The notes under the pieces: model-generated
Databases searched by the model: none
What the model saw: the letters and a program-made list of their open reading frames with translations, nothing else
What the model was told of the DNA's origin: nothing
Made by a program: the position numbers and the translations under genes
Shown here: one piece after another, positions 13,045-32,000 of the stretch
Position numbering within the stretch: the stretch's first letter is position 1
Layout: each line of letters opens with the position of its first letter
DNA from: Synechococcus elongatus PCC 6301
Lineage (GTDB): Bacteria > Cyanobacteriota > Cyanobacteriia > Synechococcales > Synechococcaceae
NCBI RefSeq assembly: GCF_000010065.1
Contig: NC_006576.1
Span: 1,680,001 to 1,712,000 of the forward strand
DNA: 32,000 bases
Direction: 5' to 3'

Positions 13045-13060
13045 GCCCTCGAGAACTGTC

Positions 13061-13695: not shown

Positions 13696-13725
13696 AGTTG
13701 CAACTCATTACTGAGCGCATGAATA

Positions 13726-13892: not shown

Positions 13893-13901
13893 TGTTTAAA
13901 A

Positions 13902-13974: not shown

Positions 13975-14019
13975 AAGAGCAGAGGCCGAAACCTCTTGCA
14001 TTGTATCGGATGCCGATCC

Positions 14020-14382: not shown

Positions 14383-14487
14383 AGACCCGCTGTAAAACTC
14401 ACAGTCCACTAGCTTAGCGAAGTTGATTGTCACTTGTCTAGAGGGGAATGCTAAAAATGCCCCCGATCGCTGCTTGAGGATTGCGCT

Positions 14488-14949: not shown

Positions 14950-15129
14950 CTCGCTGAGATTTCTAAGGGTGAAGCCTGTCTAGCGGTCGGGCGATCGCGG
15001 TGGATTCACGCCGGGCTATCTCAGTGGGGAGTCTTGGTGCTCTGTTGTCTGCTCAATCGCTTGCCCTCTGCAGCTTTCATTTCAGCGCGATCGGTATCTG
15101 AGGGAGAATAAAGACCCGCCGCTGTCTAT

Positions 15130-15684: not shown

Positions 15685-15825
15685 TCAGGGGACTGAGCTA
15701 GGGCGATCGCAGTCTGTAGTCTGTCGGACTTGATCCCGATACGGGGTTAACCCTCAGCACACAGGGAGCGGCAGGCAAAGCGAGCGCTAGACTGAAGAAA
15801 CGTCGCTCAGCGGAACCGCTTGGCT

Positions 15826-16512: not shown

Positions 16513-16554
16513 TCTTCCGACCGTCTTTGTCCTGTCCTCCACCCATCCTGCGCT

Positions 16555-17154
16555 ATGCCTATTGGAGTCCCGAGCGTTCCCTACCGTCTTCCGGGAAGCA
16601 GCTTTGAACGCTGGATCGATATCTACAACCGTCTAGCGATGGAGCGGATCATCTTCCTCGGGCAGGAAGTGACCGATGGCTTGGCCAATAGCATTGTGGC
16701 TCAGCTGCTCTATCTTGATTCGGAAGACTCCAGCAAGCCGATCTATCTCTACATCAACTCGCCCGGTGGCTCAGTCACGGCGGGGATGGCGATCTACGAC
16801 ACGATGCAATACATCAAGTCGCCGGTGATCACTATTTGCTTGGGTCTGGCGGCTTCGATGGGTGCGTTCCTGCTCTGCGCCGGCAGCAAAGGAAAACGGC
16901 TCGCATTGCCTCATTCGCGGATTATGATTCACCAACCGCTGGGGGGAACGGGTCGCCGTCAGGCTTCCGATATTGAAATCGAAGCCAAAGAGATTCTGCG
17001 AATCAAAAAACTGCTGAACCAAATCATGGCCGATCGCACCGGTCAGCCTCTTGAAAAAATCGAGAAGGACACCGATCGCGACTACTTCATGTCTGCTGAA
17101 GAAGCCCGTGAGTACGGCTTGATCGACCAAGTGATCGCGGAACGGCCTGTCTAG
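16555..17154 (+). CDS. clpP: ATP-dependent Clp protease proteolytic subunit (ClpP3-type, partner of ClpR)
   Basis: The catalytic motifs [11 protein letters not shown] and IMIHQPLGG are intact. Length is 199 aa, and it lies 42 nt downstream of clpR. Confidence 0.92.
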
Positions 17155-17159
17155 TTGCC

Positions 17160-17693
17160 ATGAGTGCCGAGCGATCGCGATGGCTGCAGTGTTTGGGACT
17201 TCCTGCTACGGCTGACGCGATCGCGATCAAAACGGCTTACCGTCAGTTGGCGCGGCAGTGGCACCCCGATTGCAATCCCGATCCGCAAGCCACCGCTCGT
17301 TTTCAGGAGATCCAGATCGCCTACGAGCGGCTGTTAGTTCTGCAAGAATCCGCCACGGCTCAACCCGTTCCGCAAGCCCCCCCAGCGGATGCAGCTCTGA
17401 TTGCCCTCAAACGTCAGTTCCAGCCACAACTACAAGATCTGCTGGCGGATGGACGCTGGGCGAAGGCGATCGCCTTAACTGAAGCACTGCAACAACGCTT
17501 ACCCGACGATTGGGAAGTGCGTCAGTGGTTGGCAATCTGTTATCTCCGGCAAGGGCAAGCCTTGCTGGTTCAACAACAGCGACAGCAAGCGATCGTCTAC
17601 TTTGAGAAAGCGCGCCGCACCGATCCGCACAATCCACGCCTCCAACAAGAAATTCAAGCCAGCCATAGGCTGGCCTCAGCTCGGCGAGCCTGA
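17160..17693 (+). CDS. J-domain (DnaJ-like) protein with TPR-like C-terminal half
   Basis: The J-domain reads LGLPATADAIAIKTAYRQLARQWHPDCNPD..ARFQEIQIAYERL and includes the HPD motif. The helical repeat region contains WAKAIALTEAL and YLRQGQALLV. It starts 5 nt after the clpP3 stop. Confidence 0.75.
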   Translation: MSAERSRWLQCLGLPATADAIAIKTAYRQLARQWHPDCNPDPQATARFQEIQIAYERLLVLQESATAQPVPQAPPADAALIALKRQFQPQLQDLLADGRWAKAIALTEALQQRLPDDWEVRQWLAICYLRQGQALLVQQQRQQAIVYFEKARRTDPHNPRLQQEIQASHRLASARRA

Positions 17694-20600
17694 CGGATCT
17701 GGATTAACCGCGATTGCAGAGTCATCAGCGCTCATCAATTCGAATTTGCGCCAGCTGGGTTGATGTACCACGACGCAGTTACGGCCTGCAGCTTTGGCTT
17801 GGTAAAGACTGGTGTCAGCTGACTTGATCAACGTATCGCTCGCTAGCCCCGATTCTGGGAATGCAGCCACCCCAATTGAGATCGTGAGAGAGGGCAGCGT
17901 TTGCTCGTGATAGCTGATGATTAATTGAGCGATCGCCTGTCGAATTTGATCAGCCTTGCGAGCGCTGACTTCAAGGCTGGCTCCCGGCATTAAAATCGCA
18001 ATTTCTTCGCCACCAAAGCGACAGACCACATCTGAGGCACGAACTTGGTTAAGCAGGGCGCGAGCTACCTGTTTCAAGACCATATCGCCTGCATCGTGGC
18101 CAAACTCGTCGTTGAAACGCTTGAAGTAGTCAATATCCAGCATTAATATCCCGATGCTGTCACCACTGCGCTTGGCGCGGGCCAATTCCTGTTCAAAAAA
18201 TTCCTGCAGATAGCGGCGATTGAACAACCCTGTAAGCGGATCGCGCAGGTTCTCTTGGCGCAGGGTTTCTCGCAGTTGGAGGTTGGCAATTGCTAATGCA
18301 AGTTGCTCAGCGATGGTTTCAGCTAGAGGTGGGGCCTTGCTGTCCACACAGCTATTGTCATGTGTAACCATTTGTTCAAACTGTAGGTGCCCCAAAATCT
18401 CGCCGAAAGCGGCGAGCGGCAAGCAAAAAATGCTTTCTCCCGAGGAGATCTTGCCCTTGACGTGGGGGCAAGCTGGACTAAGCACTTGGTCCGGATCATA
18501 GAGATAGGGCGTACCACGGCGTAGAGCCCAACAATCGCTGAGCAAAAAAGACGGCTGAGTATGAACGGGTTGGCCCCATTCAACAATGGCTTGGAGCATT
18601 TCGAGCTTTCCATCCCGCTGGAGCAAACTCAGCTGACCGCGACAGTTAGGAAAGAGTTGGGGGAGAAATCCGGCAATTACTTGTCCTGCTTCAGCAACCG
18701 TGGAACAAGCCTGTAGAAAATCATTCAGCTGTCCCAGCAGTTGCATCTCCCGATTACGTTGATCGAGTTCTTGAATGCGCTCCTGCAACGCCAAGCCCAT
18801 TTCTTTGAGTGCTGTGATATCAATCGCTAGTCCTTGGACTAGCAGCGTTCCATCGACTGACAGCAACATCTCGCCTTGGTCGCGCACCCAAATGGTTTGG
18901 CCATCGCTGCGAATCATCCGATATTCAAAGCTGTAGGCTCGTTGTTCGGCGAGCGCGGCTTCAAACTGCTGTTGTATCTTGTCTAGGTCGTCTGGATGCA
19001 CAAACTGTTGCCACGTGTTGGCAAAGCCTGCATGCCACTGGGATTGATCAACTCCGAGCAAGGTTTCAATCTGAGGGCTGACATACCCCTTGTCCTGTAG
19101 AGCATTCGGCGAGAAACGATAGACCACCCCCGGATTCTTCTCGATCAGAAGACGGGCTTGCTCTTCGGCCTGGGCTAAACGTAATTCTGTAGCTTTGCGA
19201 TCGGTGATATCGATCGCACTGCCGATGAGTCGCACCACCTGACCTTCAGCATTACGAACGGCTTCGCCTTGTCCACTGACCCAGTGAATGCTGCCATCAG
19301 CCCAAGTCACACGAAAGTCGATGGAATAAGGAGTTCCTTGTTGGATGCATCTCTGCACATTTCTAAGCCAGTAGTCGCGATCGAGGGGATGAATTTGCTG
19401 TAGATGTTCCTCAAAGCTGGGTACGGGCTCACTGGGGTTCATCCCAAACAAACGAAACAGTTGAGGCGACCATTCAATTGTTTGGGTGACAACCTCAAAG
19501 GCCCAACTGCCAACCTTGGCGACGCGCTGAGCCGTTTCGAGCTGATCGCGAATCGACTCCAGTTCGGTGGTACGGATCTGCACTAAATGCTCAAGATTTT
19601 CGCTGAGATCCCGTAGCTGGCGATCAGTGTGTGCACGCTCGGTGACATCAATCACTGTACTTAAAACTAGTGATCGTCCTTCGGCGTCTGGCCCGAGAGC
19701 GGAGGAATAAAAATCCCAAGTCCGCAGCGCTCCCGAGCGAGTTTGAATGACAAATTCCCCATTCGCCTGCCGTTGACCGGGCGGCATCGCATAAACTTCC
19801 TCTGCGATGCGTAACACTTCTGCTACCTTCTCTGGGCCATAGACTTTTTCGAACCAACTTTCAACGGTGGGCGTGTCTTCAAGTTCATAACCACTTAATT
19901 CCCGCCAAGCTTCGTTGACCTCTAAGATGCAACCGTCACTGCGATAGAGCACCATCGGCTGAGGGGCTTGCATGACAATTTGTCGGAAACGCCGCTGGAT
20001 CTCTTGGGCTGCTTGGAGTGCGGTCAACAGTTTTTCTTCTTGCTGATTGAGCGATCGCGCAACAACCCAAAGAAGTGCGACTAGCAGACTGGTCGTAATC
20101 GGTGCCACGAGGCCGTCACTGACCACGGGGGTGACCGATAAGTACTGTTGGCTCAAAAACTTGAGACCGCGTAACAGCAGCGGTAATACAAAGAGCCAAG
20201 GCAACAGAGTCCGACTCAGTCGCCCCCCAAGCGAAGGACTACTCAGAATTGCTAGCAATCCCCGTTGGGGGTGGAAGCTGAGAGCCCCAATGCTGAGCAC
20301 TAAGAACCCCACAACCGTGTTAGAGGCGATCGCACTTTGGCGGTCGAGGAATAGATAAAAAGCATTGATGCCGAGTAAATAGCCAAAAAGGCCAAGCATT
20401 GCAATCCACCCGGCAATCAAAGCAAGACTCTGGCTACAGATCACTCGTGGTTCTCTCTGACTGCGAGCACAGCTGAGAGAAGCGGTCAGCAGTAAAAACG
20501 AGATTGCAGCTTGATCACTCATCCGACCCGGCAGGCCAGACCCCACTGGGGAAATGCGATCGCGAACCAGCAGTTCATCCAGCCCTAGATTCCAGCCCGT

Positions 20601-20882
20601 GACATATTGCAGCATGGTCAAGCTGGTGATCGTAGCGACTAGTAATAGACAAACGCGGTGCCATTGCTGCTGCCAACGCACCCTTGACTGCGCCCAGATC
20701 AATGCCCAACCGCTGAGGATAAAGCAGAAAGCCGTGTTGACCTTCATTGTGTTGGCACTGCCCGGCAGCAGCATCGTTAGTGCTGGACTACTGATTGCCC
20801 AGCCCAAGAGCACGATGAGCCCGAGGGTGATTGCCAAGAAGCCACAGAGTCGAGGGAGTGACAGCCAAACCCGTAATCGCAT
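17676..20882 (-). CDS. membrane-bound multi-sensor diguanylate cyclase (polytopic N-domain, 3 PAS/PAC, GAF, GGDEF)
   Basis: The first ~330 aa contain multiple hydrophobic helices. PAS/PAC-like repeats follow (WSPQLFRLFG, YRMIRSDGQTIWV and others), then a GAF domain. The GGDEF domain reads DPLTGLFNRRY..DIDYFKRFNDEFGHDAGD..RASDVVCRFGGEEI, with an RxxD I-site and the active-site variant GGEEI. The ORF-track start at 20987 is TTG. The ATG at 20882 (MRLRVWLSL) is preferred. Confidence 0.85.
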   Translation of the reverse strand: MRLRVWLSLPRLCGFLAITLGLIVLLGWAISSPALTMLLPGSANTMKVNTAFCFILSGWALIWAQSRVRWQQQWHRVCLLLVATITSLTMLQYVTGWNLGLDELLVRDRISPVGSGLPGRMSDQAAISFLLLTASLSCARSQREPRVICSQSLALIAGWIAMLGLFGYLLGINAFYLFLDRQSAIASNTVVGFLVLSIGALSFHPQRGLLAILSSPSLGGRLSRTLLPWLFVLPLLLRGLKFLSQQYLSVTPVVSDGLVAPITTSLLVALLWVVARSLNQQEEKLLTALQAAQEIQRRFRQIVMQAPQPMVLYRSDGCILEVNEAWRELSGYELEDTPTVESWFEKVYGPEKVAEVLRIAEEVYAMPPGQRQANGEFVIQTRSGALRTWDFYSSALGPDAEGRSLVLSTVIDVTERAHTDRQLRDLSENLEHLVQIRTTELESIRDQLETAQRVAKVGSWAFEVVTQTIEWSPQLFRLFGMNPSEPVPSFEEHLQQIHPLDRDYWLRNVQRCIQQGTPYSIDFRVTWADGSIHWVSGQGEAVRNAEGQVVRLIGSAIDITDRKATELRLAQAEEQARLLIEKNPGVVYRFSPNALQDKGYVSPQIETLLGVDQSQWHAGFANTWQQFVHPDDLDKIQQQFEAALAEQRAYSFEYRMIRSDGQTIWVRDQGEMLLSVDGTLLVQGLAIDITALKEMGLALQERIQELDQRNREMQLLGQLNDFLQACSTVAEAGQVIAGFLPQLFPNCRGQLSLLQRDGKLEMLQAIVEWGQPVHTQPSFLLSDCWALRRGTPYLYDPDQVLSPACPHVKGKISSGESIFCLPLAAFGEILGHLQFEQMVTHDNSCVDSKAPPLAETIAEQLALAIANLQLRETLRQENLRDPLTGLFNRRYLQEFFEQELARAKRSGDSIGILMLDIDYFKRFNDEFGHDAGDMVLKQVARALLNQVRASDVVCRFGGEEIAILMPGASLEVSARKADQIRQAIAQLIISYHEQTLPSLTISIGVAAFPESGLASDTLIKSADTSLYQAKAAGRNCVVVHQPSWRKFELMSADDSAIAVNPDPSGSPS

Positions 20883-21074
20883 GAACTGCTCAAAGCCCAA
20901 AACAAAGGGGCTAGCACCTCCTCTTCTAGTATCTTGAGCTCCACCTTGATTGCTCGGCTTTTTTACAATGCCCAACAGAAATCCCAAGGCAGGTCTTAAT
21001 CTATAGAGAGCAGCCCAAACTAGTTATTCCCTAGTGTGGTATCTGATTGTTTAATTTGTTGAGCTAACTGTTCT

Positions 21075-22391
21075 GTGCCACCCTCGCGCGACTCACGCCA
21101 TCCTTGGCCGGCAGCTAGTCGATGGATGCTGGGACTGGCGGCAGGGCTCGTCGTCGCTTGCTTGCTCGCGATTTTGAAGCCCGGTTCTGGCTGGTTGTTT
21201 TTGGCCAGTGGACTTGCCTCTGTTAGCGTAGCGTCTTTCCTCCAGGCAGCCAGTGATCGGCGCTACCTCGACGATCTGAGCCATCGCTATGAGCAGTTGC
21301 ATGATGAGAAAGAAATACTAGAGGAAAACTATCAGAAACAACTCGCCCAAGAGCGCATCCTACTAGACATTACCCTCAATATTCGTCAGTCGCTTAACCT
21401 CAGCCAAGTGATGGAGACCGCGGTCTCAGAAGTGCGATCGCTTCTGCGTGTCAATCGTGTCTTAATCTATCAATTTCAGCCTGACTGGCGTGGTCTGATC
21501 GTTGCTGAATCAGTATCTGAGCCGGAATTCTCGCTGATGGGAATTCAGATTGAAGATTATTGCTTTGCCAATAACTGGGACCAGCAGTATCGTGATGGTT
21601 ATATCCATCAAATTGACCACGTTGCCATTGCTGGATTAGATGACTGCTATCGTCGGTTGTTGCAATCGATCAAGGTAAAAGCCAATTTGGTTTTGCCGAT
21701 TCGCTACGGTGATAGCCTGTGGGGCTTATTAGCTGCTCATCACTGTATTCTGCCGCGGACTTGGCGTAATAGTGAAGTCGTATTGCTGACCCAAGTTGCC
21801 GAACAGCTGAGTATTGCGATCGCTCAATCGCAGTTGCTGAAAACCTTGCAAGTAACGAACCAGAGATTGCAGGATCAGGTGCGCATTGACGGCCTGACTC
21901 AAATTCCCAATCGCCGCCGCTTTGATGAGTATTTCAACGATGTTTGGCTATGGGGCTGTCGTGATCACACGCCTGTGGCCTTACTGCTGATCGATGTTGA
22001 TTACTTCAAAACCTATAACGATTTTTACGGGCATTTGGCCGGTGATGAAGTCCTGCGAAAAATTGGTTTATTGCTGAATTCGGTCGTTTTGCGAGCTACA
22101 GATCTGGTCGCTCGCTACGGGGGCGAAGAATTTGTCGCTGTTCTGCCAAGCACGACTCTCGAGGGAGCCCAAGCGGTGGCACGACGGTTACAAGCAGATT
22201 TACAGCGGTTGCAGATCCCACACAATCATTCGCCAGTTGCCGCTTGGGTGACAGTCAGTATTGGTATTGCGGTCACCATTCCCACGATTGATGTTGCATT
22301 AACGGACCTGATTGATCAGGCAGATAAGGCTTTGTACGAGGCGAAATCAGCAGGCCGCAATTGCATTATGTGGGCGGAGTCTTTGGCTTGA
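21075..22391 (+). CDS. diguanylate cyclase with two N-terminal TM helices, a coiled coil and a phytochrome/cyanobacteriochrome-class GAF domain
   Basis: The GAF reads RVLIYQFQPDWRGLIVAES..IEDYCF..YRDGYIHQIDHVAIAGLDDCYRRLLQSIKVKANLVLPI..LWGLLAAHHC. The GGDEF reads DGLTQIPNRRRF..DVDYFKTYNDFYGHLAGD..RATDLVARYGGEEF. The start at 21075 is GTG, with an alternative ATG at 21126. Confidence 0.85.
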   Translation: MPPSRDSRHPWPAASRWMLGLAAGLVVACLLAILKPGSGWLFLASGLASVSVASFLQAASDRRYLDDLSHRYEQLHDEKEILEENYQKQLAQERILLDITLNIRQSLNLSQVMETAVSEVRSLLRVNRVLIYQFQPDWRGLIVAESVSEPEFSLMGIQIEDYCFANNWDQQYRDGYIHQIDHVAIAGLDDCYRRLLQSIKVKANLVLPIRYGDSLWGLLAAHHCILPRTWRNSEVVLLTQVAEQLSIAIAQSQLLKTLQVTNQRLQDQVRIDGLTQIPNRRRFDEYFNDVWLWGCRDHTPVALLLIDVDYFKTYNDFYGHLAGDEVLRKIGLLLNSVVLRATDLVARYGGEEFVAVLPSTTLEGAQAVARRLQADLQRLQIPHNHSPVAAWVTVSIGIAVTIPTIDVALTDLIDQADKALYEAKSAGRNCIMWAESLA

Positions 22392-22407
22392 ATTGCTGAT
22401 CTAGATG

Positions 22408-22788
22408 TCAGGGTTGCTCGGTCGACTGTCGACCGAGGGCATAGACCCCGCAGGCGATCGAAGCAACCATGCCAAGACTTAAACCCCAGCTGTGTCCTAG
22501 GCTCACCTCCACACCCCAATCGCAAACACCACCCAAGACCAACAGGGGAAGGGTACTGATAATTGAGGCATAGAGCAGATTGACCGATTCCCGGGCTTCC
22601 CGCGATCGCTCGTACTCGGTGGTCGATGTGTAGAGAGAGCGATCGGCTTCTCCTAGCCAATGGGCAAGCTGCTGACTGAGTCGGCGGGTGACTGGCGCTA
22701 GGGCAAAGTAGAGCGCAATTGCCCAGAGAGCGGCTGCGGCCACACTGACCGCATCAAAGGGAAACAGCGATCGCAGGAAGAGAAACAT
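22408..22788 (-). CDS. hypothetical integral membrane protein
   Basis: This 126-aa ORF has about 3 hydrophobic helices (AAAALWAIALYFALAP, IISTLPLLVLGGV, LSLGMVASIACGVYAL). It has a clean ATG. No family was recognised. Confidence 0.5.
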   Translation of the reverse strand: MFLFLRSLFPFDAVSVAAAALWAIALYFALAPVTRRLSQQLAHWLGEADRSLYTSTTEYERSREARESVNLLYASIISTLPLLVLGGVCDWGVEVSLGHSWGLSLGMVASIACGVYALGRQSTEQP

Positions 22789-22896
22789 CGGAGTCAGGAG
22801 ACGACATAGTCTCTACAGCCTGACACAGACTTTTGGGCAGAACCGTTCATGGTGCGATCGCTAGGATCAAATCAGCCATTGTGGAGTGAGGAGATC

Positions 22897-23796
22897 ATGC
22901 CGATCGCAGCAGTACCCGGTCAGGTTTGGACTTGGCAGGGTCACCAGATCTATTACGTGCAAGCTGGGGAGACAGCAGGCGATCGCCCGCCTTTATTGTT
23001 GGTGCATGGCTTTGGTGCCTCAACCGACCACTGGTGGAAAAATATTGCAGACCTACAGGCAGACTTCCAAGTCTGGGCCATTGACCTGCTGGGCTTTGGT
23101 CGCTCCGCCAAACCGGCGATTGACTACAGCGGTCAACTCTGGCAACAGCAGCTCACGGATTTTATTCAAACCGTCATCGGTCAGCCTGCGATCGTGGCGG
23201 GTAACTCTCTGGGAGGATACGCTGCCCTCTGTGCGGCTGCCGCTGCTTCAGATTGGGTCAAGGGGGTTGTGTTGCTGAATAGTGCTGGCCCCTTCACGCC
23301 CGATGCGCCGCCCCCCGAGCCCTCGCCCTTGCAAAAATTCTGGCGATCGCTGCTGCGTGGCCTCACCCGCCAGCCCTGGGCCGTTTGGTTAGTCTTCAAG
23401 AATTTGCAGCGCCCCCAAACGATTCGCCGCACCCTCGAAAAGGTCTACTGCGATCGCAGTGCCGTCACCGATGATCTCGTTGAAGCGATTCGCCGTCCTT
23501 CCCTCGATCCGGGCGCCTTTGAGGTGTTTCGCTCGGTCTTCCGAACGCCCCAAGGTGAACCCGTTGATCAGCTCCTAGCACGACTCACCTGTCCGTTGCT
23601 CTTGATCTGGGGGAGCGGCGATCCCTGGATGAATTGCCAGCAGCGCAGTCAGCAGTTCCAGCGCTATGCTCGCAACCTGACAGAGCATTTTCTCGAAGCG
23701 GGCCATTGCCCCCACGATGAAGTACCTGACCAAGTCGATCGCTTGATTCGGGAGTGGGTAGAGCAGGCGATCACGCCGCAGTCACTGTGCTGTTAG
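22897..23796 (+). CDS. alpha/beta-hydrolase, pheophytinase/chlorophyll-dephytylase (PPH/CLD1)-like subfamily
   Basis: Motifs are WTWQGHQIYY..PPLLLVHGFGAS..HWWKNI..FQVWAIDLLGFGRSAKP..GNSLGG (nucleophile elbow) and GHCPHDE (catalytic His). The ATG at 22897 is preceded by GAGGAG. The ORF-track ATG at 22849 is an alternative. The subfamily assignment is from memory. Confidence 0.78.
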   Translation: MPIAAVPGQVWTWQGHQIYYVQAGETAGDRPPLLLVHGFGASTDHWWKNIADLQADFQVWAIDLLGFGRSAKPAIDYSGQLWQQQLTDFIQTVIGQPAIVAGNSLGGYAALCAAAAASDWVKGVVLLNSAGPFTPDAPPPEPSPLQKFWRSLLRGLTRQPWAVWLVFKNLQRPQTIRRTLEKVYCDRSAVTDDLVEAIRRPSLDPGAFEVFRSVFRTPQGEPVDQLLARLTCPLLLIWGSGDPWMNCQQRSQQFQRYARNLTEHFLEAGHCPHDEVPDQVDRLIREWVEQAITPQSLCC

Positions 23797-23805
23797 CGAT
23801 CGCGC

Positions 23806-23838
23806 AAAAAAAGAGGCAGAACCCGATCGGCTCTGCCC
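23806..23838 (-). terminator. intrinsic terminator of the rpsB-tsf operon (possibly bidirectional)
   Basis: On the minus strand, GGCAGAGCC-GATCG-GGTTCTGCC forms a 9-bp stem and is followed by TCTTTTTTT. It lies about 40 nt after the tsf stop. On the plus strand the same hairpin follows the hydrolase stop. Confidence 0.6.
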
Positions 23839-23879
23839 CTATATTTCTAACTCGTTCGAGTTGCTAGAATCAGCGGTTT

Positions 23880-24545
23880 TTAGCTTTGGGCAGCTGCTGC
23901 TTGAGCGGCCACTTCGGCAGCAAAATCGCTCTCAGCTTTCTCAATGCCTTCACCGAGGACAAAGCGGGTAAAGCGACGCACTTGGATGTTTTCACCCAAT
24001 TCAGCGATCGACTGTTTCACCAGCTCAGCCACCGAGATGTTGGGGTCGCGGATGTAGGGCTGATCCAGCAGCGTCAACTCTTTCAGTCGTTTTTCAATCC
24101 GGCCCACCACGATTTTCTCGCGGATATTTTCCGGCTTGTTGGCCAAGTCGTCACGACCCATTTCGATCGCTTTTTCCCGCTCAGCAATTTCAGCCGGGAT
24201 GTCTTCGACTTTGACAAATTCCACGTTCGGGCAAGCCGCAATTTGCATGGCAATGCTGCGGACGAGCTCTTGGAATTTATCGCCACGAGCCACGAAGTCG
24301 GTTTCGCAGTTGACTTCAACCAGCACGCCGACACGGCCGCCGGTGTGGATGTAGCTGCCAACCAACCCTTCAGCTGCGGTGCGGCCCGATTTCTTCTCAG
24401 CCGAAGCAATCCCTTTCTGACGCAGCCATTCGATCGCTTTTTGCAGGTCGCCGTCGTTTTCGTTCAGCGCCTTTTTGCAATCCATCATGCCAGCGCCGGT
24501 CTTTTCCCGGAGCTCCTTAACGAGCTTTGCACTAATTTCAGCCAT
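23880..24545 (-). CDS. tsf: translation elongation factor Ts
   Basis: The sequence [27 protein letters not shown]...CETDFVA is the canonical EF-Ts N-terminal UBA-like domain and core. Confidence 0.95.
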
Positions 24546-24647
24546 GATCCAGGTGTGATGTGGGGGTCAAATTTTTGTCGATGAGGCGGTGGAGCCGCCG
24601 CAGGGCCACTGGGCCGCAGACTAGCCTACTCCACCGCGATCGCTTGC

Positions 24648-25403
24648 CTATGCTTCGTCGGCGTCGTCTTCGTACTCGTCTTCGGCGCCGTCGTAGTCAT
24701 ACTCTTCAGCAACCGGAGCTGCACCGTGACGAGCTTCGTAGATCGCGTCTGCCAGTTTGCTGACAATCAGCTTGACCGAGCGAATCGCGTCGTCGTTGCC
24801 CGGAATCGGCACATCGACCACGTCGGGGTCACAGTTGGTATCGAGCATCGCCACGATCGGAATGCCCAGCTTTTGGCATTCTTGGACCGCGTTGTACTCG
24901 CGTTTTTGGTCGATGATCACCACTGCGTCGGGCAGGCGGCGCATATTTTTGATGCCGCCCAAGTATTTCTGCAGCCGCTCCAGCTCACGCCGCAGCACTG
25001 CCGCTTCTTTCTTGGGACGCAGGGCCAAAGCGCCGGTTTCTCCCATCCGTTCCAGCTCTTTCAAGCGGTCAACCCGGCCTTTAATCGTGGCCCAGTTGGT
25101 AAGCATGCCGCCCAACCAACGTTGGTTGATGTAGTAGGAGCCGCAGCGGGTGGCTTCTTCAGCGATGATGCCAGCAGCTTGGCGTTTGGTGCCAACAAAC
25201 AGGAAGCGCTTACCTTGCTCGGCGTTGGTGCGCACCCAGCGGTAGGCAGTTTCGACACATTGCGCTGTTTTGACAAGGTCAATGATGTGGACCCCATTGC
25301 GCGCCGTGTAGATGTAGGGCGCCATGCGGGGGTTCCAACGACGAGTCTGGTGTCCAAAGTGGACACCAGACTCCATCATTTCAGCGAGAGAAATGATTGC
25401 CAT
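24648..25403 (-). CDS. rpsB: 30S ribosomal protein S2
   Basis: Motifs are [27 protein letters not shown] and [11 protein letters not shown]. It has an acidic C-terminal tail and lies upstream of tsf, as in most bacteria. Confidence 0.95.
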
Positions 25404-25748
25404 GATTATTTGACTCCAGGTCGGGTTTAAGCCTCCACCTCGACAGGATTCATTCCACCGGAATGAACACCCGAACGTCGAAGTGTGCGATTTGACACTT
25501 TTTCTAGGGTAGCACTTGGGCGCGATCGCAGGCGATGACCTGACTACAGCGATCGCGTGACAGATGGGACGGTATCTCCAGACAAGCGCTAGGAATGTGC
25601 TTCAGAAAACAGCCACAAATTCCGTAGCATTTGCTACAGTTTAAGGGCGAGGGTAATCGTTGGCCCAGTTTATCTGGGTGGAAGTAAGGTCTTTGGCCTG
25701 AAGCAACGCGCCTCTCAATGTCAAACAAAGTTGAGACGCGTACCCAAA

Positions 25749-26033
25749 ATGGAACTGACATACCGCGGGATTAAATATCCCTACACCCCCCCGACCGTCG
25801 CTTCGGCACCGAGCAGCATCTATACCGAATACAAAGGTCTCGATCTGCGCTTCCGCTCTAAAGAAGAACCCGTGCAACCGCTGAAAGTTGAAATGGCTCA
25901 GGCCAAACCGGCAACTTCAGCAAATCCAACGGAAGAAAAACTGGTGAGTCATCTCTACCGCCACGCCCTGCGTAGCTTGCAGCGGCAACAGCAAAAATCG
26001 ATGCGGGCCAAACAAGAGCTGCAGTTTGGCTAA
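25749..26033 (+). CDS. DUF4278-like small protein
   Basis: MELTYRGIKYPYTPPTV matches the M-x-L-x-YRG-x-x-Y N-terminus of the cyanobacterial DUF4278 family (from memory). The ORF-track start at 25731 is TTG, and the ATG at 25749 is preferred. A strong terminator follows. Confidence 0.6.
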   Translation: MELTYRGIKYPYTPPTVASAPSSIYTEYKGLDLRFRSKEEPVQPLKVEMAQAKPATSANPTEEKLVSHLYRHALRSLQRQQQKSMRAKQELQFG

Positions 26034-26074
26034 AAATTCGCCAGGATTGGCTCCCTATCCTGTTTGACGACGCC

Positions 26075-26101
26075 TACAGATCGCCTGCTGGAGTTCCAGC
26101 A
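26075..26101 (+). terminator. intrinsic terminator after the DUF4278-like gene
   Basis: CCTGCTGG-AGTT-CCAGCAGG forms a perfect 8-bp stem and is followed by CTTTTTT. Confidence 0.65.
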
Positions 26102-26402
26102 GGCTTTTTTATGGCAATCTGCAAGGTAGTTAGGACGATTGAACTTCGAATAGTTTGGTTGAGAGTCAACAGCCTCGGCTCGTGGGGGGTGATTACGCCC
26201 GCACCCGCGTACTGGGAAACTCAGTGAGAATGATCGGCTCAATCACGATCGCTACGGGTACCACTCGCTGGTTTAGCCACAGGTTTGAGGCTCATTCAGT
26301 TAGGTCAAAACCTCTTAATTTCCGACTCACTCAGTGCAATATGAGCGATCGCTGTCCGCTAGATCCGCGAGAGTAGTTGCCGTAATTCTGCCAGCTGCAG
26401 TT

Positions 26403-27044
26403 CTAGATTCTGCATTTGGCGCTTGAGGGGATAGCGCTTTTCGAGGGCGGCACGGGCGAGGTCTTCGCGATCGCGCTGCAGGGCGGTTTGGGCTGTTTTG
26501 TGCCAGGATTCGGCTTCTTGTCGGATCTGGGCCAGTTGTTGCTGGAGTTGGTTTCCGTCACCAAGAGGGAGGTCCGAGCTTCTTGTAGCAAGCGTTCGGC
26601 TTGGACAGGATCCGCAGACTGTTGAGCTTGACTGAGGAGATTCTGCACCCCTAGGGCACCGGCGGCTGCCAAGGCTGGCAGCACGAGCGGGCCACCGAGG
26701 AGTAGCCCACCAACGGCCCCGATTGCTAGCGATCGCTCAACTTGGCTGCTGTTTGCCCGACCCGTTTTGCACCAAGTGGCGAAGTGTTCGCAGTTGCTGA
26801 ACAGGACGTTGTAGCGTTGTTCCCCCAGACGACTGAGGGCGCGTTCGATCGTGATGTCGGCAGGGTCGCAGTCGGCATAATCACGCAGCCGAATGGGCTC
26901 GCCCCGACGGAAGTATTCTTTGCTGGTGCGAACAATCGTTTCGCCTTCGAGGTAGTGCACGACGGTGCCATCCCCAATATCAATGCCGTGATGGGTGTAC
27001 AGTCCGCCCCGTCGATCGACAACGAGATGATCGCCTTGTGCCAT
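26403..27044 (-). CDS. LRAT/NlpC-P60 (H-rev107-like) domain protein with a hydrophobic Gly/Ala-rich segment; the 3' part appears frameshifted (true end probably 26359)
   Basis: LRAT-family catalytic residues are seen in YTHHGIDIG, VVHY and NCEHFATW, followed by LAIGAVGGLLLGGPLVLPALAAAGALGV. The last ~50 codons of this frame are Pro/Ser/Lys-rich nonsense. Another frame continues as a clean coiled coil (see findings). Confidence 0.75.
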   Translation of the reverse strand: MAQGDHLVVDRRGGLYTHHGIDIGDGTVVHYLEGETIVRTSKEYFRRGEPIRLRDYADCDPADITIERALSRLGEQRYNVLFSNCEHFATWCKTGRANSSQVERSLAIGAVGGLLLGGPLVLPALAAAGALGVQNLLSQAQQSADPVQAERLLQEARTSLLVTETNSSNNWPRSDKKPNPGTKQPKPPCSAIAKTSPVPPSKSAIPSSAKCRI

Positions 27045-27067
27045 AGAACCGAGAAGAGTCCTCTTCG

Positions 27068-27910
27068 CTAGGGTAGCGAGCTGCGGGGGGCTTGGAGGAA
27101 CGGTCGTGCGATCGCGGCAAAAGTGGTTGGATCCTCCAGCATCGGTAGGTGTCCAACTTGGGGAATAACCACCTGCCGACAGCGATTGCTGAGGGTTGCA
27201 GCCTGCTCAGCCAAGGCAACTGGTGCAATCTGATCAAACTGGCCCGAAATCAGTAGAGTCGGCACAGCGATCGATCGCCAAGCCTGACCGAGTTGCTCGA
27301 TAGCATTGGCGCTGACAGCGTCTTGCAGGCTGCCGATCGCGGCTTCGGTATCCGCTTGCAGAAAGTCCGCCAGAAAGGATCGAGTGGTTGCTGGATCAAG
27401 CGGTCGATGACAGAAGCGACTGAGAATCAGGCGATCGAGGCCAGGAATTTGCTGCCAGAGCGGCGATCGCGAGCGCACAAGGAGCTGGCTGATCTGCTGA
27501 AAAATCGCAAAGGCGATCGGGGAGTAAGTAAACAGTCCGCTGGCGGTCAACAGCAGACGATCGCAGCGATCGGGATAAGCCTGGGCAAATAGGAGCGCGA
27601 TGCTGCAGCCCCAAGAGTGAGCCACAATCCGGACTGGCGGTAACGCAAGCTGATCAAGTAGAGCGACTACATCCGCAACCGTTGCTTGCAAGCTGTAGTC
27701 CTGACCTGCTGGCTGCGATCGGGCTTCACCAAAGCCGCGCCAATCGAGAGCCAGTCCTGCTCCACAATCCTCCAGCGCTTGGGCCATTGGCTGCCAATTA
27801 CGACGACTGCCCCCCCAACCATGGAGATAGAGAATGGGCGCTTGGCGATCGCCTGCTAAAGTCCATTCCGCTTGCAGTGACCCCCCTTGGGGTGAGGCGA
27901 TCGCAATCAA
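27068..27910 (-). CDS. alpha/beta-hydrolase fold protein
   Basis: Motifs are [10 protein letters not shown], the nucleophile elbow AHSWGCS, and VGHLPMLE (catalytic His). The only available start is the TTG at 27910, which overlaps the clpX TGA (TTGA). Confidence 0.78.
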
Positions 27911-29256
27911 GCGGATTCCGGTGTGGGCAAACTGGACGGGAGCAAGAGTACGTCTGCGCTAGAGCGTTTTTCAACCATCTCCCGCGTGATCGTGCAGTGG
28001 GTGACGTCCTGACGCGAGGGCAGTTCGTACATCACTTCCAGCATGATCTCTTCGACAATGCCGCGGAGTGCCCGCGCTCCGGTCTTACGGCGGAAGGCTT
28101 CACGAGCGATCGCTTCGATCGCATCTTGGCGAAACTCCAGCTCGACGCTGTCCATGTGCATCAGCTTCTGATACTGCTTGACCAGCGCATCCCGGGGTTC
28201 GGTCAGGATTTCCGTCAACGCCGTTTCGTCGAGCGGATCGAGGACCGCCGTGACGGGCATCCGGCCAATAAATTCGGGAATCAGGCCAAACTGGACCAGA
28301 TCCTCGGGTTCCATGTGGCGCAGGATGGCCGCTGCCCGCTGCTCCTTGGTTTTGCTCTCTTCTGGGTGAACAAAGCCGATCGATTTTTTGCCAAGACGGC
28401 GATCGACTAGTTTCTCCAACCCGACAAAAGCACCACCACAGATAAACAGGATGTTGCGCGTATCGATTTGGATACAGTCCTGATAGGGATGCTTGCGACC
28501 GCCTTGGGGGGGGACATTGGCAATTGTGCCTTCCAGCATCTTCAGGAGTGCCTGCTGGACGCCTTCGCCCGAGACATCGCGCGTGATCGAAGGGTTTTCG
28601 CTCTTGCGCGCGATTTTGTCGATTTCGTCGATGTAGATGATGCCGCGTTGAGCTTCCTCGATATCGAGATCGGCCACTTGCAGGAGCCGCAGCAGAATGT
28701 TTTCGACGTCCTCACCGACGTAGCCGGCTTCGGTCAGGGTTGTCGCATCAGCGACGGCAAAAGGAACATCTAACAGCTTGGCAAGCGTCTGAGCCAGCAA
28801 GGTTTTACCGCAGCCCGTTGGTCCAATCAGCAGAATATTCGACTTCTGGATTTCAATCGTTTCGCCTGCTTCCTCCGCTGATTGCTGGTAGGCGAGCCGC
28901 TTGTAGTGGTTGTAAACCGCTACCGACAACATCTTTTTGGCTTCGTTTTGACCAATGACGTGGTGGTCAAGATAGCGCTTGATGTCGTGGGGCTTGGGAA
29001 TCTGCGACAGCGTTAGCGATCGCTTCGGTTTGCGTGGGCCTTGGTGACTAGTGGTAGCAGCAGTGGCTGGTTTAGGGCTACCGGGCGGCGGTGCTGGGTT
29101 GGCATTACCGTCGAACAGCTCTTCGTCGAGGATTTCGTTGCAGAGGTCGACGCACTCATCACAAATGTAGACTCCAGGGCCGGCGATGAGTTTGCGCACC
29201 TGCTCCTGGGATTTTCCACAAAAAGAGCACTTCAGGTGAGAGTCGTATCTCGACAT
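27907..29256 (-). CDS. clpX: ATP-dependent Clp protease ATP-binding subunit ClpX
   Basis: It has the zinc-binding N-domain [20 protein letters not shown], Walker [12 protein letters not shown] and Walker [10 protein letters not shown], plus the IGF loop. The ATG at 29256 ([10 protein letters not shown]) is preferred over the GTG at 29259. Confidence 0.95.
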
Positions 29257-29268
29257 CACGCCTGCCCG

Positions 29269-29991
29269 CTACTGGAGAACAGCATCATTATGGTCGGTGA
29301 TGGCCATGGTTGGCCGTGTAAGTACCTGATCAATTAATCCGTAAGCCTTGGCTTCTTCCGGCGACATGAAGAAGTCGCGATCGGTGTCGACTTCAATTTT
29401 TTCGAGGGGCTGGCCTGTGTGCTGGGCGAGCAAGTCGTTCAGCGTGCTCTTGTGATAGAGGATTTCTCTCGCTTGGATTTCAATATCCACGGCCTGACCC
29501 TGAGCACCGCCGAGGGGTTGGTGGATCATGATCCGAGCACTCGGAAGCGCCATCCGCTTGCCTTGGGCACCCCCCGAAAGCAGGAATGCCCCCATGCTGG
29601 CCGCTAGGCCAAAACAGATGGTGGCGACATCCGGCGCAACCTGCTGCATTGTGTCGTAGATCGCCATCCCTGCCGTGACGGAGCCGCCGGGGGAGTTGAT
29701 ATAGAGCTGAATGTCTTTCTCTGGATCTTCGGCTTCCAGAAAGAGCAGCTGGGCCACGATCGAATCGGCAACGGCATCATCAACGCCAGTCCCTAGGAAG
29801 ACAATCCGTTCGCGTAGCAAGCGGGAATAGATGTCAAAGGCGCGTTCGCCCCGGCCGGACTGCTCTACCACCGTCGGCACAATGGCTTGGGAGCCTGCGA
29901 TCGCTTGAATCTGCGGCTGCTGCCAGCGGCTGTCGAGACCAGCGGCCAGTCGTCGGCTGTGGATGGGCAGAGAAGCGTGGGACGAAAACAT
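29269..29991 (-). CDS. clpP: ATP-dependent Clp protease proteolytic subunit (ClpP2-type, with N-terminal extension)
   Basis: [11 protein letters not shown] and IMIHQPLGG are intact. The ORF-track start at 30177 lies inside tig. The ATG at 29991 (MFSSHASLP) is the first start after the tig stop and gives 240 aa. Confidence 0.9.
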
Positions 29992-30082
29992 AGAGGAAGG
30001 CACTGGATACAGCAGCGGCAGCGAGAGAGTCCCGCTGCCGACAATTATGCCGCGCCGAACTGGTCGACTGTGAGCGAGCGGC

Positions 30083-31507
30083 TTAGGCTTTTTTCTTGCC
30101 TTTCTTCGCTTTGGGTGCTTCAGGGGCTTCTTCTGCAGTTTCCGTCGCGGTTGTTTCCACGGTCGCGGAGGCAGCATCGACTTCAGTTTCTGCTGCTTTG
30201 GGGGCGACGAAGGTCACGCTGTTGTTGGCCTCAAACCACTCCAGCAGTTTGTCCTCTAGTAATTCTTCGCGGACGACCGTGATGAGGCGATCGCGATCGA
30301 CTTCTTGCGGGCGAGGATAGTTGCTCAGCAGTTCAGCTGCCCGAGCCTTCACGGCTTCGTCATCAACCTGAGTCTCGGTGACTTTTGCCAACTCACCCAG
30401 GGCGATCGTGCGGCGCAGACGTTGCTCGTCTTCGTCCTTGGAATTTTCGCGCAACCGTTCCAGTACTTCTTCGGTGAACAGCTTGCGGACATCCATGCCT
30501 TGTCCCGAGAGACGGCTGGCCGTCTCGTTGATCATGGCAGAGATTTCGCGCTGGAGCAGCGACTCGGGAATTTCCACATCCAGCTGATCGGCCAACGCAG
30601 TCAGGATCGCGTCACGCTTGCTGGCTTTGACTTCGCTCTCATGTTCCGCTTGGAAGCGCTCGGTCAAGGCTGTTTTCAGCTCTTCGATCGTTTCGTACTG
30701 GCTGGCTTCCTGAGCGAAGGCATCATCCAGTTCTGGCAGATCGCGGGTTTTCAGCTCTTTGAGCGTGATTGTGAACTGGGCAGCTTTGCCGGCGACTTCT
30801 TCCTGGGCATAGGTCTCGGGAAAGGTGGCATCAACGGTGCGGGTTTCTTCGATCGCCATGCCAACGATGCCGCTGATGAAGCCTGGGATAAAGCGATCTT
30901 CTTCAACTTCAATTTGGAAGTCGGTGCCGCTACCACCCGGAATTTCTTCGCCGCTCTCGACGAGGATGCCTTGGAAGTCGATCACGGCCACATCGCCGAT
31001 CGCCGCATTGCGGCCTTCGACGGGGACCAAGGTCGCCATCTGTTTTTGTTGCTCGGCTAAAACATTGTCAACGCGGTTGGCATCAAAGGGCACCTCAGCC
31101 ACTTCGACCGTCAAGCCGGTGTACTGCGCTAGGGTTGCCGTCGGCTGCACGTCGACACTGGCTTCAAAGCTGAAAGACTTGCCGGGTTGAAAGGCAGCAA
31201 CGAGCGTCTCAAAGTCGCTGCTCAACTGGTAGTTGCCGATCGCTGGAATCGATTCTTGGGCGATCGCCGATTCCAAGCTTTGCTGAACCAAGTCCTCAAT
31301 AGCGTTGGCCTTGAGAGCGGTTTCACCCAAACGCTGAATCAGAACTGGACGGGGGACTTTCCCAGGACGAAAGCCGGGGAAACGAACTTCGCGACTGAGG
31401 CGGGTGAGGGTACGCTCGTAGACTTGGCGCGACTGTTCGCCACTGACTTCAATCTGCAGACCAACGCGACTGGCCGGCAGCTTCTCCTGGGTAACTTTTA
31501 TCGACAT
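30083..31507 (-). CDS. tig: trigger factor (ribosome-associated PPIase chaperone)
   Basis: The N-terminus reads [21 protein letters not shown]...[10 protein letters not shown] (ribosome-binding GFRxGxxP motif). It has a central FKBP-like domain and a Lys-rich C-terminal tail. Length is 474 aa. Confidence 0.95.
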
Positions 31508-31774
31508 CCGAGTTCAGATTATTTGAGGGAGCTGGTTGCAGCGTGGGCAATGATCCAGTGGCCTTGCCATAGGCCAATGATCGCGCTCGAGATCTCAGGG
31601 GGATGGCGATCGCGGATCGAGGCTTCTTTTTTCTGCAGTCTTTGATCGTATCTGATGGACATGGCTCCTGACCAGAATCGATCGAATTGCTCCCAGTCAC
31701 GCTTCAGCCTTGTGGCGATCGCCCGCATCAGGAACAATGCCATGCTGAAACAGGCATAGCGATGTTGTGAGGCC

Positions 31775-32000
31775 ATGCAAGAGGCAAAAGTTGCGGCAAT
31801 TTTGGGAGCCGGTGCTTGGGGAACGACCCTGGCTCAGCTCTTGCGCAGCAATGGCCTTGAGGTGCGGCAATGGTCTCGCCGAAGTGAGACCTCTTTGGCA
31901 GCAACATTGGCAGAGGCCGATCTCTGGATTATGGCGGTCTCCATGGCCGGCTTGGCTTCCGTGGCGGATCAAGTGGCAGCCCTCCAACTGGGCGATCGCG
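31775..32000 (+). CDS. gpsA: NAD(P)H-dependent glycerol-3-phosphate dehydrogenase, N-terminal part (runs off the right edge)
   Basis: The ATG at 31775 has an in-frame TAG at 31757. MQEAKVAAILGAGAWGTTLAQLLRSNGLEVRQWSRR is the GpsA Rossmann N-terminus. There is no stop before the window ends. Confidence 0.75.
   Translation, partial: MQEAKVAAILGAGAWGTTLAQLLRSNGLEVRQWSRRSETSLAATLAEADLWIMAVSMAGLASVADQVAALQLGDR

What the first reader, a model, noticed from the sequence alone, without database searches (positions are those of the whole stretch)
26359..27044. LRAT/NlpC-P60-like enzyme whose PspA/IM30-like coiled-coil tail lies in another reading frame (frameshift, pseudogene or recoding)
**What the sequence shows.**
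- Residues 1 to about 105 carry the LRAT/H-rev107 catalytic signature: His in YTHHGIDIG, VVHY, and Cys in NCEHFATW.
- A Gly/Ala-rich hydrophobic segment follows, then heptad-like DPVQAERLLQEARTSLL.
- From roughly 26579-26553 onward the annotated frame decays into TNSSNNWPRSDKKPNPGTKQPKPPCSAIAKTSPVPPSKSAIPSSAKCRI* (stop at 26403).
- The frame reached by skipping two nt (equivalently, restoring one missing nt) reads GDGNQLQQQLAQIRQEAESWHKTAQTALQRDREDLARAALEKRYPLKRQMQNLELQLAELRQLLSRI* (stop at 26361-26359).
- That second frame has no ATG, GTG or TTG upstream of the Met in MQNLE, so it cannot be an independent gene.

**Established knowledge (from memory).** A W..KA..AL..G.EDLAR.AL.RK pattern is the hallmark helix of PspA/IM30(Vipp1) membrane-stress proteins.

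**Inference.** The ancestral or real product is an LRAT-hydrophobic-PspA-like fusion. This is an acyltransferase/phospholipase-type enzyme tethered to a membrane-remodelling coiled coil, an architecture I do not know to be described. Here it is either inactivated, mis-sequenced or expressed by frameshifting.
Basis: partly seen in the sequence, partly recalled or inferred. Interest (0 to 1): 0.75.

Follow-up and report, generated by a model that had tools for sequence, protein, structure and literature searches.

The report
Sequencing-error frameshift in LRAT–PspA gene
The split reading frame is a one-base error in the old Synechococcus elongatus PCC 6301 genome record; the real gene is an intact 228-residue lipid-enzyme/PspA-like fusion that is common in cyanobacteria, already noted in print, and still untested.

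Summary
The 213-aa ORF at 26403-27044(-) has an LRAT domain, and a PspA/IM30-like coiled coil continues in another frame to the stop at 26359.

The window is the 2007 S. elongatus PCC 6301 record; the ORF is identical to BAD79771.1/syc1581_c. The frame change is one missing C in a CCC run at window 26550-26551. PCC 7942 (CP000100) and the 2022 re-sequencing of PCC 6301 itself (CP085785) both carry the C. Both encode one continuous 228-aa protein.

Adomako et al. 2022 showed that the old PCC 6301 sequence is full of errors. Here it differs from the other two records at 14 sites in 15.6 kb. One is S83 in place of an invariant Asn next to the catalytic Cys.

79 of 80 orthologous loci hold a single continuous ORF, and there is no slippery site. 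The cause is therefore mis-sequencing, not recoding, and very probably not a pseudogene.

It is not undescribed. It occurs in at least 568 species genomes, nearly all with cyanobacterial titles. It is annotated in databases and listed as 'NlpC+PspA' by Ravi et al. 2024. Its function is untested.

The parts
26359..27044 (-). True extent of the gene, the orthologue of Synpcc7942_2528 (ABB58558.1). It is 686 nt here and 687 nt in intact copies, which encode a 228-aa LRAT-PspA-like protein.
   Evidence: The DNA alignment to CP085785 and a Logan assembly is identical except for 2 substitutions and 1 gap. Intact protein P0122 is on 238 contigs and in 309 index blocks.
26403..27044 (-). Annotated 213-aa ORF of the legacy record (syc1581_c, BAD79771.1). 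Everything after residue 165 (TNSSNNWPRS...CRI) is out-of-frame artefact.
   Evidence: Exact sequence look-up finds it on one contig only, the 2,696,255-bp NCBI PCC 6301 record. Translation.
26550..26551 (-). Frameshift site. On the gene strand the window reads GAA ACC AAC, while all other S. elongatus copies read GAA ACC CAA. One C of a CCC run is missing.
   Evidence: There is no X XXY YYZ slippery heptamer.
26797..26797 (-). Substitution AGC (Ser83) in the window against AAC (Asn83) elsewhere. It lies two residues before catalytic Cys85, and the column is invariant in 34 homologues. A probable base error.
26709..26709 (-). Synonymous substitution, GGT in the window against GGC elsewhere (Gly112).
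26754..27038 (-). LRAT/PLAAT-type (circularly permuted NlpC/P60) catalytic domain, residues 3-97. The catalytic triad candidates are His18 (26991-26993), His30 (26955-26957) and Cys85 (26790-26792).
   Evidence: Pfam PF04970 at E=1e-22. H18, H19, H30 and NNCEHF are invariant. The AF2 model matches human PLAAT3 4DOT with TM 0.82 and rmsd 2.2 Å. The family profile hits PLAAT2/3/4 in the PDB at about 3e-9.
26646..26732 (-). Gly/Ala-rich uncharged hydrophobic segment, residues 105-133 (SLAIGAVGGLLLGGPLVLPALAAAGALGV). It is probably a membrane anchor and is a lineage-specific insertion. Its topology is unresolved.
   Evidence: The maximum 19-residue Kyte-Doolittle mean is 1.89. The segment is absent from most family members. 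AF2 pLDDT is below 50. It is present in the clpX-linked subclade.
26362..26615 (-). PspA/Vipp1-like helical hairpin, residues about 144-228 of the corrected protein. It comprises the 'DP' N-cap, α1, a tip at R191-D192-R193, and about half of α2. In the window the part 3' of 26550 is in the other frame.
   Evidence: Pfam PF04012 profile positions 42-113 of 220. The family profile aligns to Vipp1/PspA chain residues 23-124 at E=2.8e-9. AF2 gives helices 146-190 and 194-227, and fold hits include E. coli PspA 4WHE and Vipp1.
27068..27910 (-). Upstream α/β-hydrolase gene (280 aa). Its start overlaps the clpX stop by 4 nt, and its stop lies 23 nt before the LRAT start codon. It is probably in the same transcription unit.
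27907..29259 (-). clpX. It lies upstream on the same strand, a linkage conserved in 28 of 80 related loci.

Best explanation
The frameshift is an error in the legacy (2007, Sanger-era) genome record of Synechococcus elongatus PCC 6301. One C of a CCC run was lost at window 26550-26551. There are also two base substitutions inside the same gene. In the organism the gene is a single 228-codon ORF.

The product has three parts:
- An N-terminal LRAT/PLAAT-type Cys-His-His domain.
- In this lineage only, a hydrophobic Gly/Ala-rich segment.
- A C-terminal truncated PspA/Vipp1 (ESCRT-III-type) α1-α2 hairpin.

**Inferred mechanism, not shown.** The enzyme domain forms an acyl-Cys85 thioester from a membrane glycerolipid and acts as a phospholipase A1/2 or O-/N-acyltransferase. 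The hairpin, helped by the hydrophobic segment here, would oligomerise the enzyme or bring it to the membrane, possibly beside Vipp1 assemblies.
For: **Identity of the record**
- The 213-aa ORF equals BAD79771.1 (syc1581_c) and occurs on one contig only.

**Same strain, re-sequenced**
- CP085785 has the extra C and an intact 228-aa ORF identical to that of PCC 7942.
- Adomako et al. 2022 (PMC9239245) name CP085785-CP085787 as the corrected PCC 6301 sequence. They state that most of the more than 1,000 apparent SNPs and indels of the old record are sequencing errors.

**Error pattern in the window**
- Over 15,643 bp the window differs from CP000100, CP085785 and a Logan assembly at the same 13 substitutions plus this one gap.
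- 9 of the substitutions are non-synonymous and 4 synonymous. They include changes in rpsB and four in trigger factor. This looks unselected.
- S83 replaces an Asn that is invariant in 34 homologues.

**Orthologues**
- 79 of 80 orthologous loci hold one continuous ORF of 204-244 aa; the other runs off its locus.
- All 34 aligned members hit both LRAT and PspA_IM30.

**Domain evidence**
-.
Against: - I could not inspect raw reads. A real mutation in the particular subclone sequenced in 2007 cannot be formally excluded.
- 11 of the 13 substitutions are transitions. That fits polymerase or cloning errors, or real mutations, better than base-calling noise.
- The functional part is inference only. 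No experiment on any family member was found.
- The tail lacks α0 and α3-α5 of PspA. In the full-length protein it scores below Pfam's gathering threshold (29-31 bits against 33.9).
Confidence: 0.93

Rival explanations
1. This is a genuine inactivating mutation (a pseudogene), present in the particular PCC 6301 culture sequenced for the 2007 record but not in other stocks.
For: - Three changes sit in one 686-nt gene: a frameshift, a hit on an invariant Asn and a synonymous change. Together they could look like decay.
- The region average is about 0.9 differences per kb.
- The substitutions are mostly transitions.
Against: - The re-sequenced PCC 6301 (CP085785) lacks all 14 differences.
- Adomako et al. 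found that the old record's variants include frameshifts and nonsense changes in essential genes, all absent on re-sequencing.
- The same record shows non-synonymous changes in rpsB and tig nearby.
- No other assembly among hundreds carries the 213-aa product.
Confidence: 0.05
2. Programmed ribosomal frameshifting (-1/+2) or another recoding event joins the two frames in vivo.
For: The second frame has no start codon of its own and encodes the conserved tail.
Against: - The shift site GAA ACC AAC is not a slippery heptamer.
- The nearly identical strains and 79 of 80 orthologous loci encode the fusion in one frame, so no frameshift signal is conserved.
- The site is absent from the corrected genome of the same strain.
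Confidence: 0.01
3. The tail is only a generic coiled coil, and its likeness to PspA is compositional.
For: - The tail also gives weak hits to other coiled-coil families, namely CHASE3, Snf7 and FlxA.
- The full-length protein is below the Pfam gathering score.
Against: - The family profile hits Vipp1/PspA chains at E=3e-9 over about 100 residues. The next unrelated coiled coil is at E=4e-3.
- All 34 members hit PF04012, the best at 1e-12.
- The W..A..A and (R/K)EDLARAAL motif is conserved at the predicted hairpin tip, as in E. coli PspA residues 71-91 (the PspA sequence is from memory).
- The conserved DP N-cap aligns with the EDPEK at the start of Vipp1 α1.
Confidence: 0.05

Closest known systems
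Documented errors of the legacy S. elongatus PCC 6301 genome record, corrected as CP085785-CP085787 (Adomako et al. 2022, mBio, PMC9239245)
   Same: This is the same record with the same kind of defect: single-base indels and substitutions that disappear on re-sequencing. At this locus the corrected record is identical to PCC 7942.
   Different: The stored supplement was cut before this row, so I found no mention of this gene in the paper. The attribution rests on my own alignment.
'NlpC+PspA' fusion architecture (AFZ52345.1, Cyan10605_0189, Cyanobacterium aponinum) in Ravi et al. 2024, mSystems (PMC11237479)
   Same: It has the same domain order, an N-terminal NlpC/P60-superfamily hydrolase followed by PspA. 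It is cyanobacterial and is predicted to modify membrane phospholipid.
   Different: I could not retrieve AFZ52345.1 to align it, so its orthology is inferred from architecture and taxon. The paper gives about one sentence. It does not note that the PspA part is truncated, nor the hydrophobic insertion or the clpX linkage of the S. elongatus subclade.
Eukaryotic PLAAT/HRASLS (H-rev107) and LRAT enzymes, Pfam PF04970
   Same: - Shared permuted NlpC/P60 fold.
- His-His-Cys triad with 12-residue His-His spacing, and the NCEHF Cys motif.
- A hydrophobic segment after the catalytic domain in this subclade.
- TM 0.82 to PLAAT3.
   Different: - About 25% identity.
- Bacterial.
- Carries a C-terminal ESCRT-III-type hairpin.
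- Most family members have no hydrophobic anchor.
- Activity is untested.
PspA / Vipp1 (IM30), ESCRT-III superfamily, Pfam PF04012
   Same: - The α1-tip-α2 hairpin is homologous.
- Conserved W/A/A pattern, EDLARAAL tip motif and DP N-cap.
- Closest to cyanobacterial Vipp1 at E=3e-9.
   Different: - Only about 85 of about 220 residues are present.
- No α0 amphipathic membrane helix, no distal α2/α3, and no α4 or α5.
- It cannot be assumed to form rings or rods on its own.

Membership tests
LRAT/PLAAT (H-rev107) family, PF04970 | The profile match is above the curated threshold. | tested here: met
   80-81 bits against a 24.3 cut-off, E=1e-22, residues 3-97. All 34 of 34 family members match.
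LRAT/PLAAT (H-rev107) family, PF04970 | Catalytic Cys in the NCEHF motif, with the catalytic His and a second His N-terminal to it (permuted NlpC/P60 order). | tested here: met
   H18, H19, H30 and N84-C85-E86-H87-F88 are invariant in 34 sequences. These residues align with PLAAT2/3 chains.
LRAT/PLAAT (H-rev107) family, PF04970 | The PLAAT fold. | tested here: met
   The AF2 model has domain pLDDT of about 80-97. It matches 4DOT, 7ZOM and 7C3Z with target TM 0.76-0.82 and rmsd 2.2-2.6 Å.
LRAT/PLAAT (H-rev107) family, PF04970 | Phospholipase A1/2 or acyltransferase activity through an acyl-Cys intermediate. | not testable with these tools
   No experimental report was found.
PspA/IM30/Vipp1, PF04012 | The profile match is above the curated threshold. 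| tested here: inconclusive
   The tail alone scores 34.6 bits against a 33.9 cut-off. The full protein scores 29-31 bits, below the cut-off. The family profile against PDB Vipp1 gives E=2.8e-9.
PspA/IM30/Vipp1, PF04012 | Full α0-α5 architecture of about 220 aa, including the N-terminal amphipathic helix α0 and the C-terminal α4/α5. | tested here: not met
   Only profile positions 42-113 of 220, or chain residues 23-124, are covered. The protein ends at residue 228, inside α2.
PspA/IM30/Vipp1, PF04012 | Self-assembly into rings or rods, and membrane remodelling. | not testable with these tools
   No data.
Programmed ribosomal frameshift genes | A slippery sequence at the shift site, with the two-frame arrangement conserved in orthologues. 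| tested here: not met
   The site GAA ACC AAC is not slippery. 79 of 80 orthologous loci and all other S. elongatus strains are single-frame.
Sequencing errors of the legacy PCC 6301 record | The variant is present only in the old record and absent from the re-sequenced same strain and from sister strains. | tested here: met

The most novel reading that the evidence does not exclude
The intact protein may be a cyanobacteria-specific lipid-remodelling enzyme. Its truncated ESCRT-III hairpin would dock it into or beside Vipp1/IM30 polymers, or let it self-assemble. That would couple phospholipase or acyltransferase chemistry to membrane-stress repair sites. In the S. elongatus/picocyanobacterial subclade it would also be membrane-anchored and co-transcribed with clpP-clpX. 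Nothing here excludes this, and nothing here tests it.
Probability: 0.15. Interest if true: 0.55.

Novelty: already known. Interest (0 to 1): 0.12.

Why it matters
**Practical value**
- syc1581_c (BAD79771.1 / WP_011243891.1) carries a false C-terminus and a false S83.
- The legacy PCC 6301 record should not be used to call pseudogenes or recoding. In this window it differs from the corrected sequence about once per kb.

**Biology**
- The biological residue is modest. The LRAT-PspA-hairpin family is widespread in cyanobacteria (at least 568 species genomes), mentioned in one sentence of the literature, and uncharacterised.
- It is a reasonable candidate for anyone studying Vipp1 or thylakoid membrane maintenance. 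That is a lead, not a discovery made here.

Tried and rejected
- **Recoding or programmed frameshift:** rejected. There is no slippery site, and orthologues and the corrected genome are single-frame.
- **Independent small gene for the tail:** rejected. Frame B has no start codon before the ATG at 26415.
- **Terminator check:** no terminator-like site was found on the gene strand downstream of the stop. This is uninformative.
- **Literature searches that found nothing:**
  - 'Synpcc7942_2528'.
  - PspA + LRAT + cyanobacteria.
  - LRAT + cyanobacteria + Vipp1: no paper holds all three terms.
  - The Vipp1 interaction study PMC4297356 does not mention the protein.
- **Adomako supplement:** the table is cut before this gene, so I saw no essentiality call or per-site listing.
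- **NCBIfam:** there is no dedicated model, only weak PspA hits.
- **Genome-contig scan:** it did not return S. elongatus itself among the best 80 loci. The strain comparison therefore rests on loci fetched by exact-protein look-up.
- **α0-like helix in the linker of insertion-less members:** considered, but no alignment supports it.

Full report
**1. The observation**

On the minus strand an ATG at 27044 opens a 213-codon ORF that ends at 26403.
- Residues 3-97 match Pfam LRAT (PF04970) at E=1e-22.
- After ...EARTSLLVTET the frame runs into a Pro/Ser/Lys-rich tail.
- A second frame reads ...QLQQQLAQIRQEAESWHKTAQTALQRDREDLARAALEKRYPLKRQMQNLELQLAELRQLLSRI* and stops at 26359-26361.
- That frame is open for 125 codons. 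It holds no ATG, GTG or TTG other than the ATG at 26415, so it cannot be a separate gene.
- A conceptual fusion tail hits Pfam PspA_IM30 at E=2e-8, 34.6 bits against a 33.9 cut-off, profile positions 42-113 of 220.

Only the junction is misplaced by a few residues.

**2. Where the window comes from and what the frameshift is**

The 213-aa product is identical to BAD79771.1 (syc1581_c) of Synechococcus elongatus PCC 6301. In a collection of about 15 billion proteins it occurs on a single contig, the 2,696,255-bp NCBI record.

The intact 228-aa version (P0122 = ABB58558.1, PCC 7942) is on 238 contigs and in 309 index blocks.

I aligned window 26330-27070(-) with CP085785.1 and with a Logan assembly. 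There are exactly three differences in 742 columns:
- AGC in the window against AAC (Ser83 against Asn83).
- GGT against GGC (synonymous).
- One missing C, AAACCAA against AAACCCAA, at window 26550-26551.

Restoring the C gives ...LLVTETQLQQQLAQ... and a 228-aa protein.

CP085785 is not just a sister strain. Adomako et al. 2022 (PMC9239245) identify CP085785-CP085787 as their re-sequencing of PCC 6301 itself. They report three things:
- The published sequence shows more than 1,000 apparent SNPs and indels.
- Many of these would disrupt essential genes.
- The variants seen in essential genes were all absent on re-sequencing, and the majority of the reported differences were sequencing errors.

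My own comparison agrees.
- Over 15,643 bp (window 16359-32000) the window differs from PCC 7942 (CP000100), CP085785 and a Logan assembly at the same 13 substitutions plus this gap.
- In the real genes, 9 substitutions are non-synonymous and 4 synonymous. They include one in rpsB and four in trigger factor. That is an unselected pattern.
- Ser83 replaces an Asn that is invariant in 34 homologues and lies two residues before the catalytic Cys.

The shift site (ACG GAA ACC AAC) is not a slippery heptamer. 79 of 80 orthologous loci from other cyanobacteria carry one continuous ORF of 204-244 aa, and the remaining locus is cut by the end of the stored DNA.

Conclusion:
- The frameshift is an error of the legacy record, with probability about 0.93.
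- A real mutation confined to the subclone sequenced in 2007 remains possible, at about 0.05. I could not see raw reads, and the substitutions are mostly transitions.
- Recoding is effectively excluded.

**3. What the real gene encodes**

*N-terminal domain.* This is an LRAT/PLAAT-type permuted NlpC/P60 domain.
- H18, H19, H30 and NNCEHF (C85) are invariant.
- The family profile hits PLAAT2, 3 and 4 structures at about 3e-9.
- The AlphaFold model has mean pLDDT 82. It superposes on human PLAAT3 (4DOT) with target TM 0.82 and rmsd 2.2 Å.

*Middle segment.* Residues 105-133 are uncharged, Gly/Ala/Leu-rich and strongly hydrophobic (19-residue Kyte-Doolittle mean 1.89).
- They are modelled with pLDDT below 50.
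- The segment is an insertion present only in a subclade: S. elongatus, Pseudanabaenaceae MAGs, Prochlorothrix, and Cyanobium/Synechococcus-type picocyanobacteria.
- Most family members pass from the LRAT domain to the tail through a short polar linker.
- Insertion-less orthologues must have both domains in one compartment, so a re-entrant or interfacial anchor is the more parsimonious reading.
- The flanking charges (more positive on the N-terminal side) would also fit a single pass with the N-terminus inside. This is unresolved.

*C-terminal part.* Residues about 144-228 are homologous to the ESCRT-III-type hairpin of PspA/Vipp1.
- The family profile aligns to Vipp1/PspA chains over residues 23-124 at E=2.8e-9. 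The alignment starts at the conserved 'DP' N-cap of α1.
- All 34 aligned members hit PF04012, the best at E=1e-12.
- AF2 gives helices 146-190 and 194-227 with the turn at R191-D192-R193. This is just before EDLARAAL, the same place as the hairpin tip of E. coli PspA (4WHE is among the fold hits).
- The hairpin is truncated. There is no α0, no distal α2/α3, and no α4 or α5.

It should therefore be called PspA-hairpin-like and not filed as a PspA/IM30 family member.

**4. Context**

In S. elongatus the order on one strand is tig, clpP, clpX, α/β-hydrolase, LRAT-PspA.
- The hydrolase start overlaps the clpX stop by 4 nt.
- The hydrolase stop lies 23 nt before the LRAT start codon.

In 28 of 80 related loci clpX lies immediately upstream on the same strand.
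- All 28 carry a hydrophobic middle segment (KD19 of at least 1.22).
- 49 of the 52 loci without clpX do not.
- The α/β-hydrolase neighbour is found at only 3 of the 80 loci, and lies between clpX and the LRAT gene in two of them, L006 and L007.

The clpX linkage may be inherited synteny within one clade and need not reflect a functional link.

**5. How it most likely works (inference)**

By analogy with PLAAT/LRAT enzymes (established knowledge), Cys85, activated by His18 and oriented by His30, would take an acyl chain from a membrane glycerolipid. It would pass the chain to water (PLA1/2 activity) or to an acceptor (acyltransfer). The hairpin would mediate self-association or membrane targeting, possibly alongside Vipp1. 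The hydrophobic insertion would add a permanent anchor in this lineage. No step of this has been tested, and I found no experimental paper.

**6. Comparison with what is known, and novelty**

Both halves of the finding are already on record.
- The unreliability of the old PCC 6301 sequence is published.
- The fusion is annotated widely as PF04970+PF04012. Source names include 'Lecithin retinol acyltransferase/PspA/IM30 family' and 'phage shock protein A (PspA) family protein'.
- It is found in at least 568 species genomes, nearly all with cyanobacterial titles.
- Ravi et al. 2024 list it as 'NlpC+PspA' (AFZ52345.1, Cyanobacterium aponinum) with a predicted lipid-modifying role.

What I add is small:
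- The exact error site.
- The truncated extent of the PspA part.
- The lineage-specific hydrophobic insertion and its association with clpX.

**7. Verdict**

The frameshift is not biology. The gene is an ordinary member of a known but uncharacterised cyanobacterial family. Interest is low, at 0.12. The residual novel reading, a Vipp1-associated lipid-remodelling enzyme, has a probability of about 0.15 and moderate interest if true.

Noticed in passing
window 17426, 17596, 18799, 20101, 20310, 25042, 25386, 30282, 30301, 30429, 31180: These are eleven further single-base differences between the window and PCC 7942, re-sequenced PCC 6301 and a Logan assembly, all of which agree with each other. 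They include Gly against Glu in rpsB (25042) and four non-synonymous changes in trigger factor (30282-31180). They are probably more errors of the legacy record. Window 1-16358 was not compared.
   Followed up: partly
window 28959 (clpX, residue 101): Re-sequenced PCC 6301 (CP085785) has A where the window and PCC 7942 have C, which gives Val101Phe in ClpX. This looks like a genuine PCC 6301 variant that the legacy record lacks. I did not check whether it is shared with UTEX 2973.
   Followed up: no
L006-L085 (80 related loci); window 27907-29259: clpX lies immediately upstream on the same strand in 28 of 80 loci. All 28 have a hydrophobic middle segment in the LRAT-PspA protein (KD19 of at least 1.22). 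Without clpX, 49 of 52 proteins lack the insertion; the exceptions are L008, L028 and L074.
   Followed up: partly
L014, L038, L044, L046, L049, L051, L053, L056 and the other clpX-linked loci from Cyanobium/Synechococcus/Vulcanococcus-type genomes: In the picocyanobacterial members a regular expression for the canonical (R/K)EDLARAAL tip motif did not match. tblastn identity to the S. elongatus tail also fades after about residue 130-180. The PspA-like part seems more diverged there.
   Followed up: no
L044 (CALRUP020000002.1) and L051 (CALRKO020000001.1): These MAG contigs are titled 'Acidovorax caeni' and 'Chitinophaga pinensis', yet they carry a cyanobacterial-type clpX (about 70% identity to S. 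elongatus) followed by the LRAT gene. They are probably mislabelled or contaminated bins.
   Followed up: no
window 27068-27910 (-): An α/β-hydrolase gene (280 aa; best NCBIfam hits are generic, such as PcaD-, MenH- and BioH-like) is wedged between clpX and the LRAT gene. Its start overlaps the clpX stop by 4 nt. It sits in that position in only two other loci, L006 and L007 (Pseudanabaenaceae MAGs); a third locus, L017, has a more distant homologue downstream on the opposite strand.
   Followed up: partly
window 26083-26104 (+): A strong terminator-like hairpin (9-bp stem with 7 GC pairs, then TTTTTT) lies 50 nt after the convergent DUF4278 gene (25731-26033, +). No comparable site follows the LRAT-PspA gene on the minus strand.
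   Followed up: no
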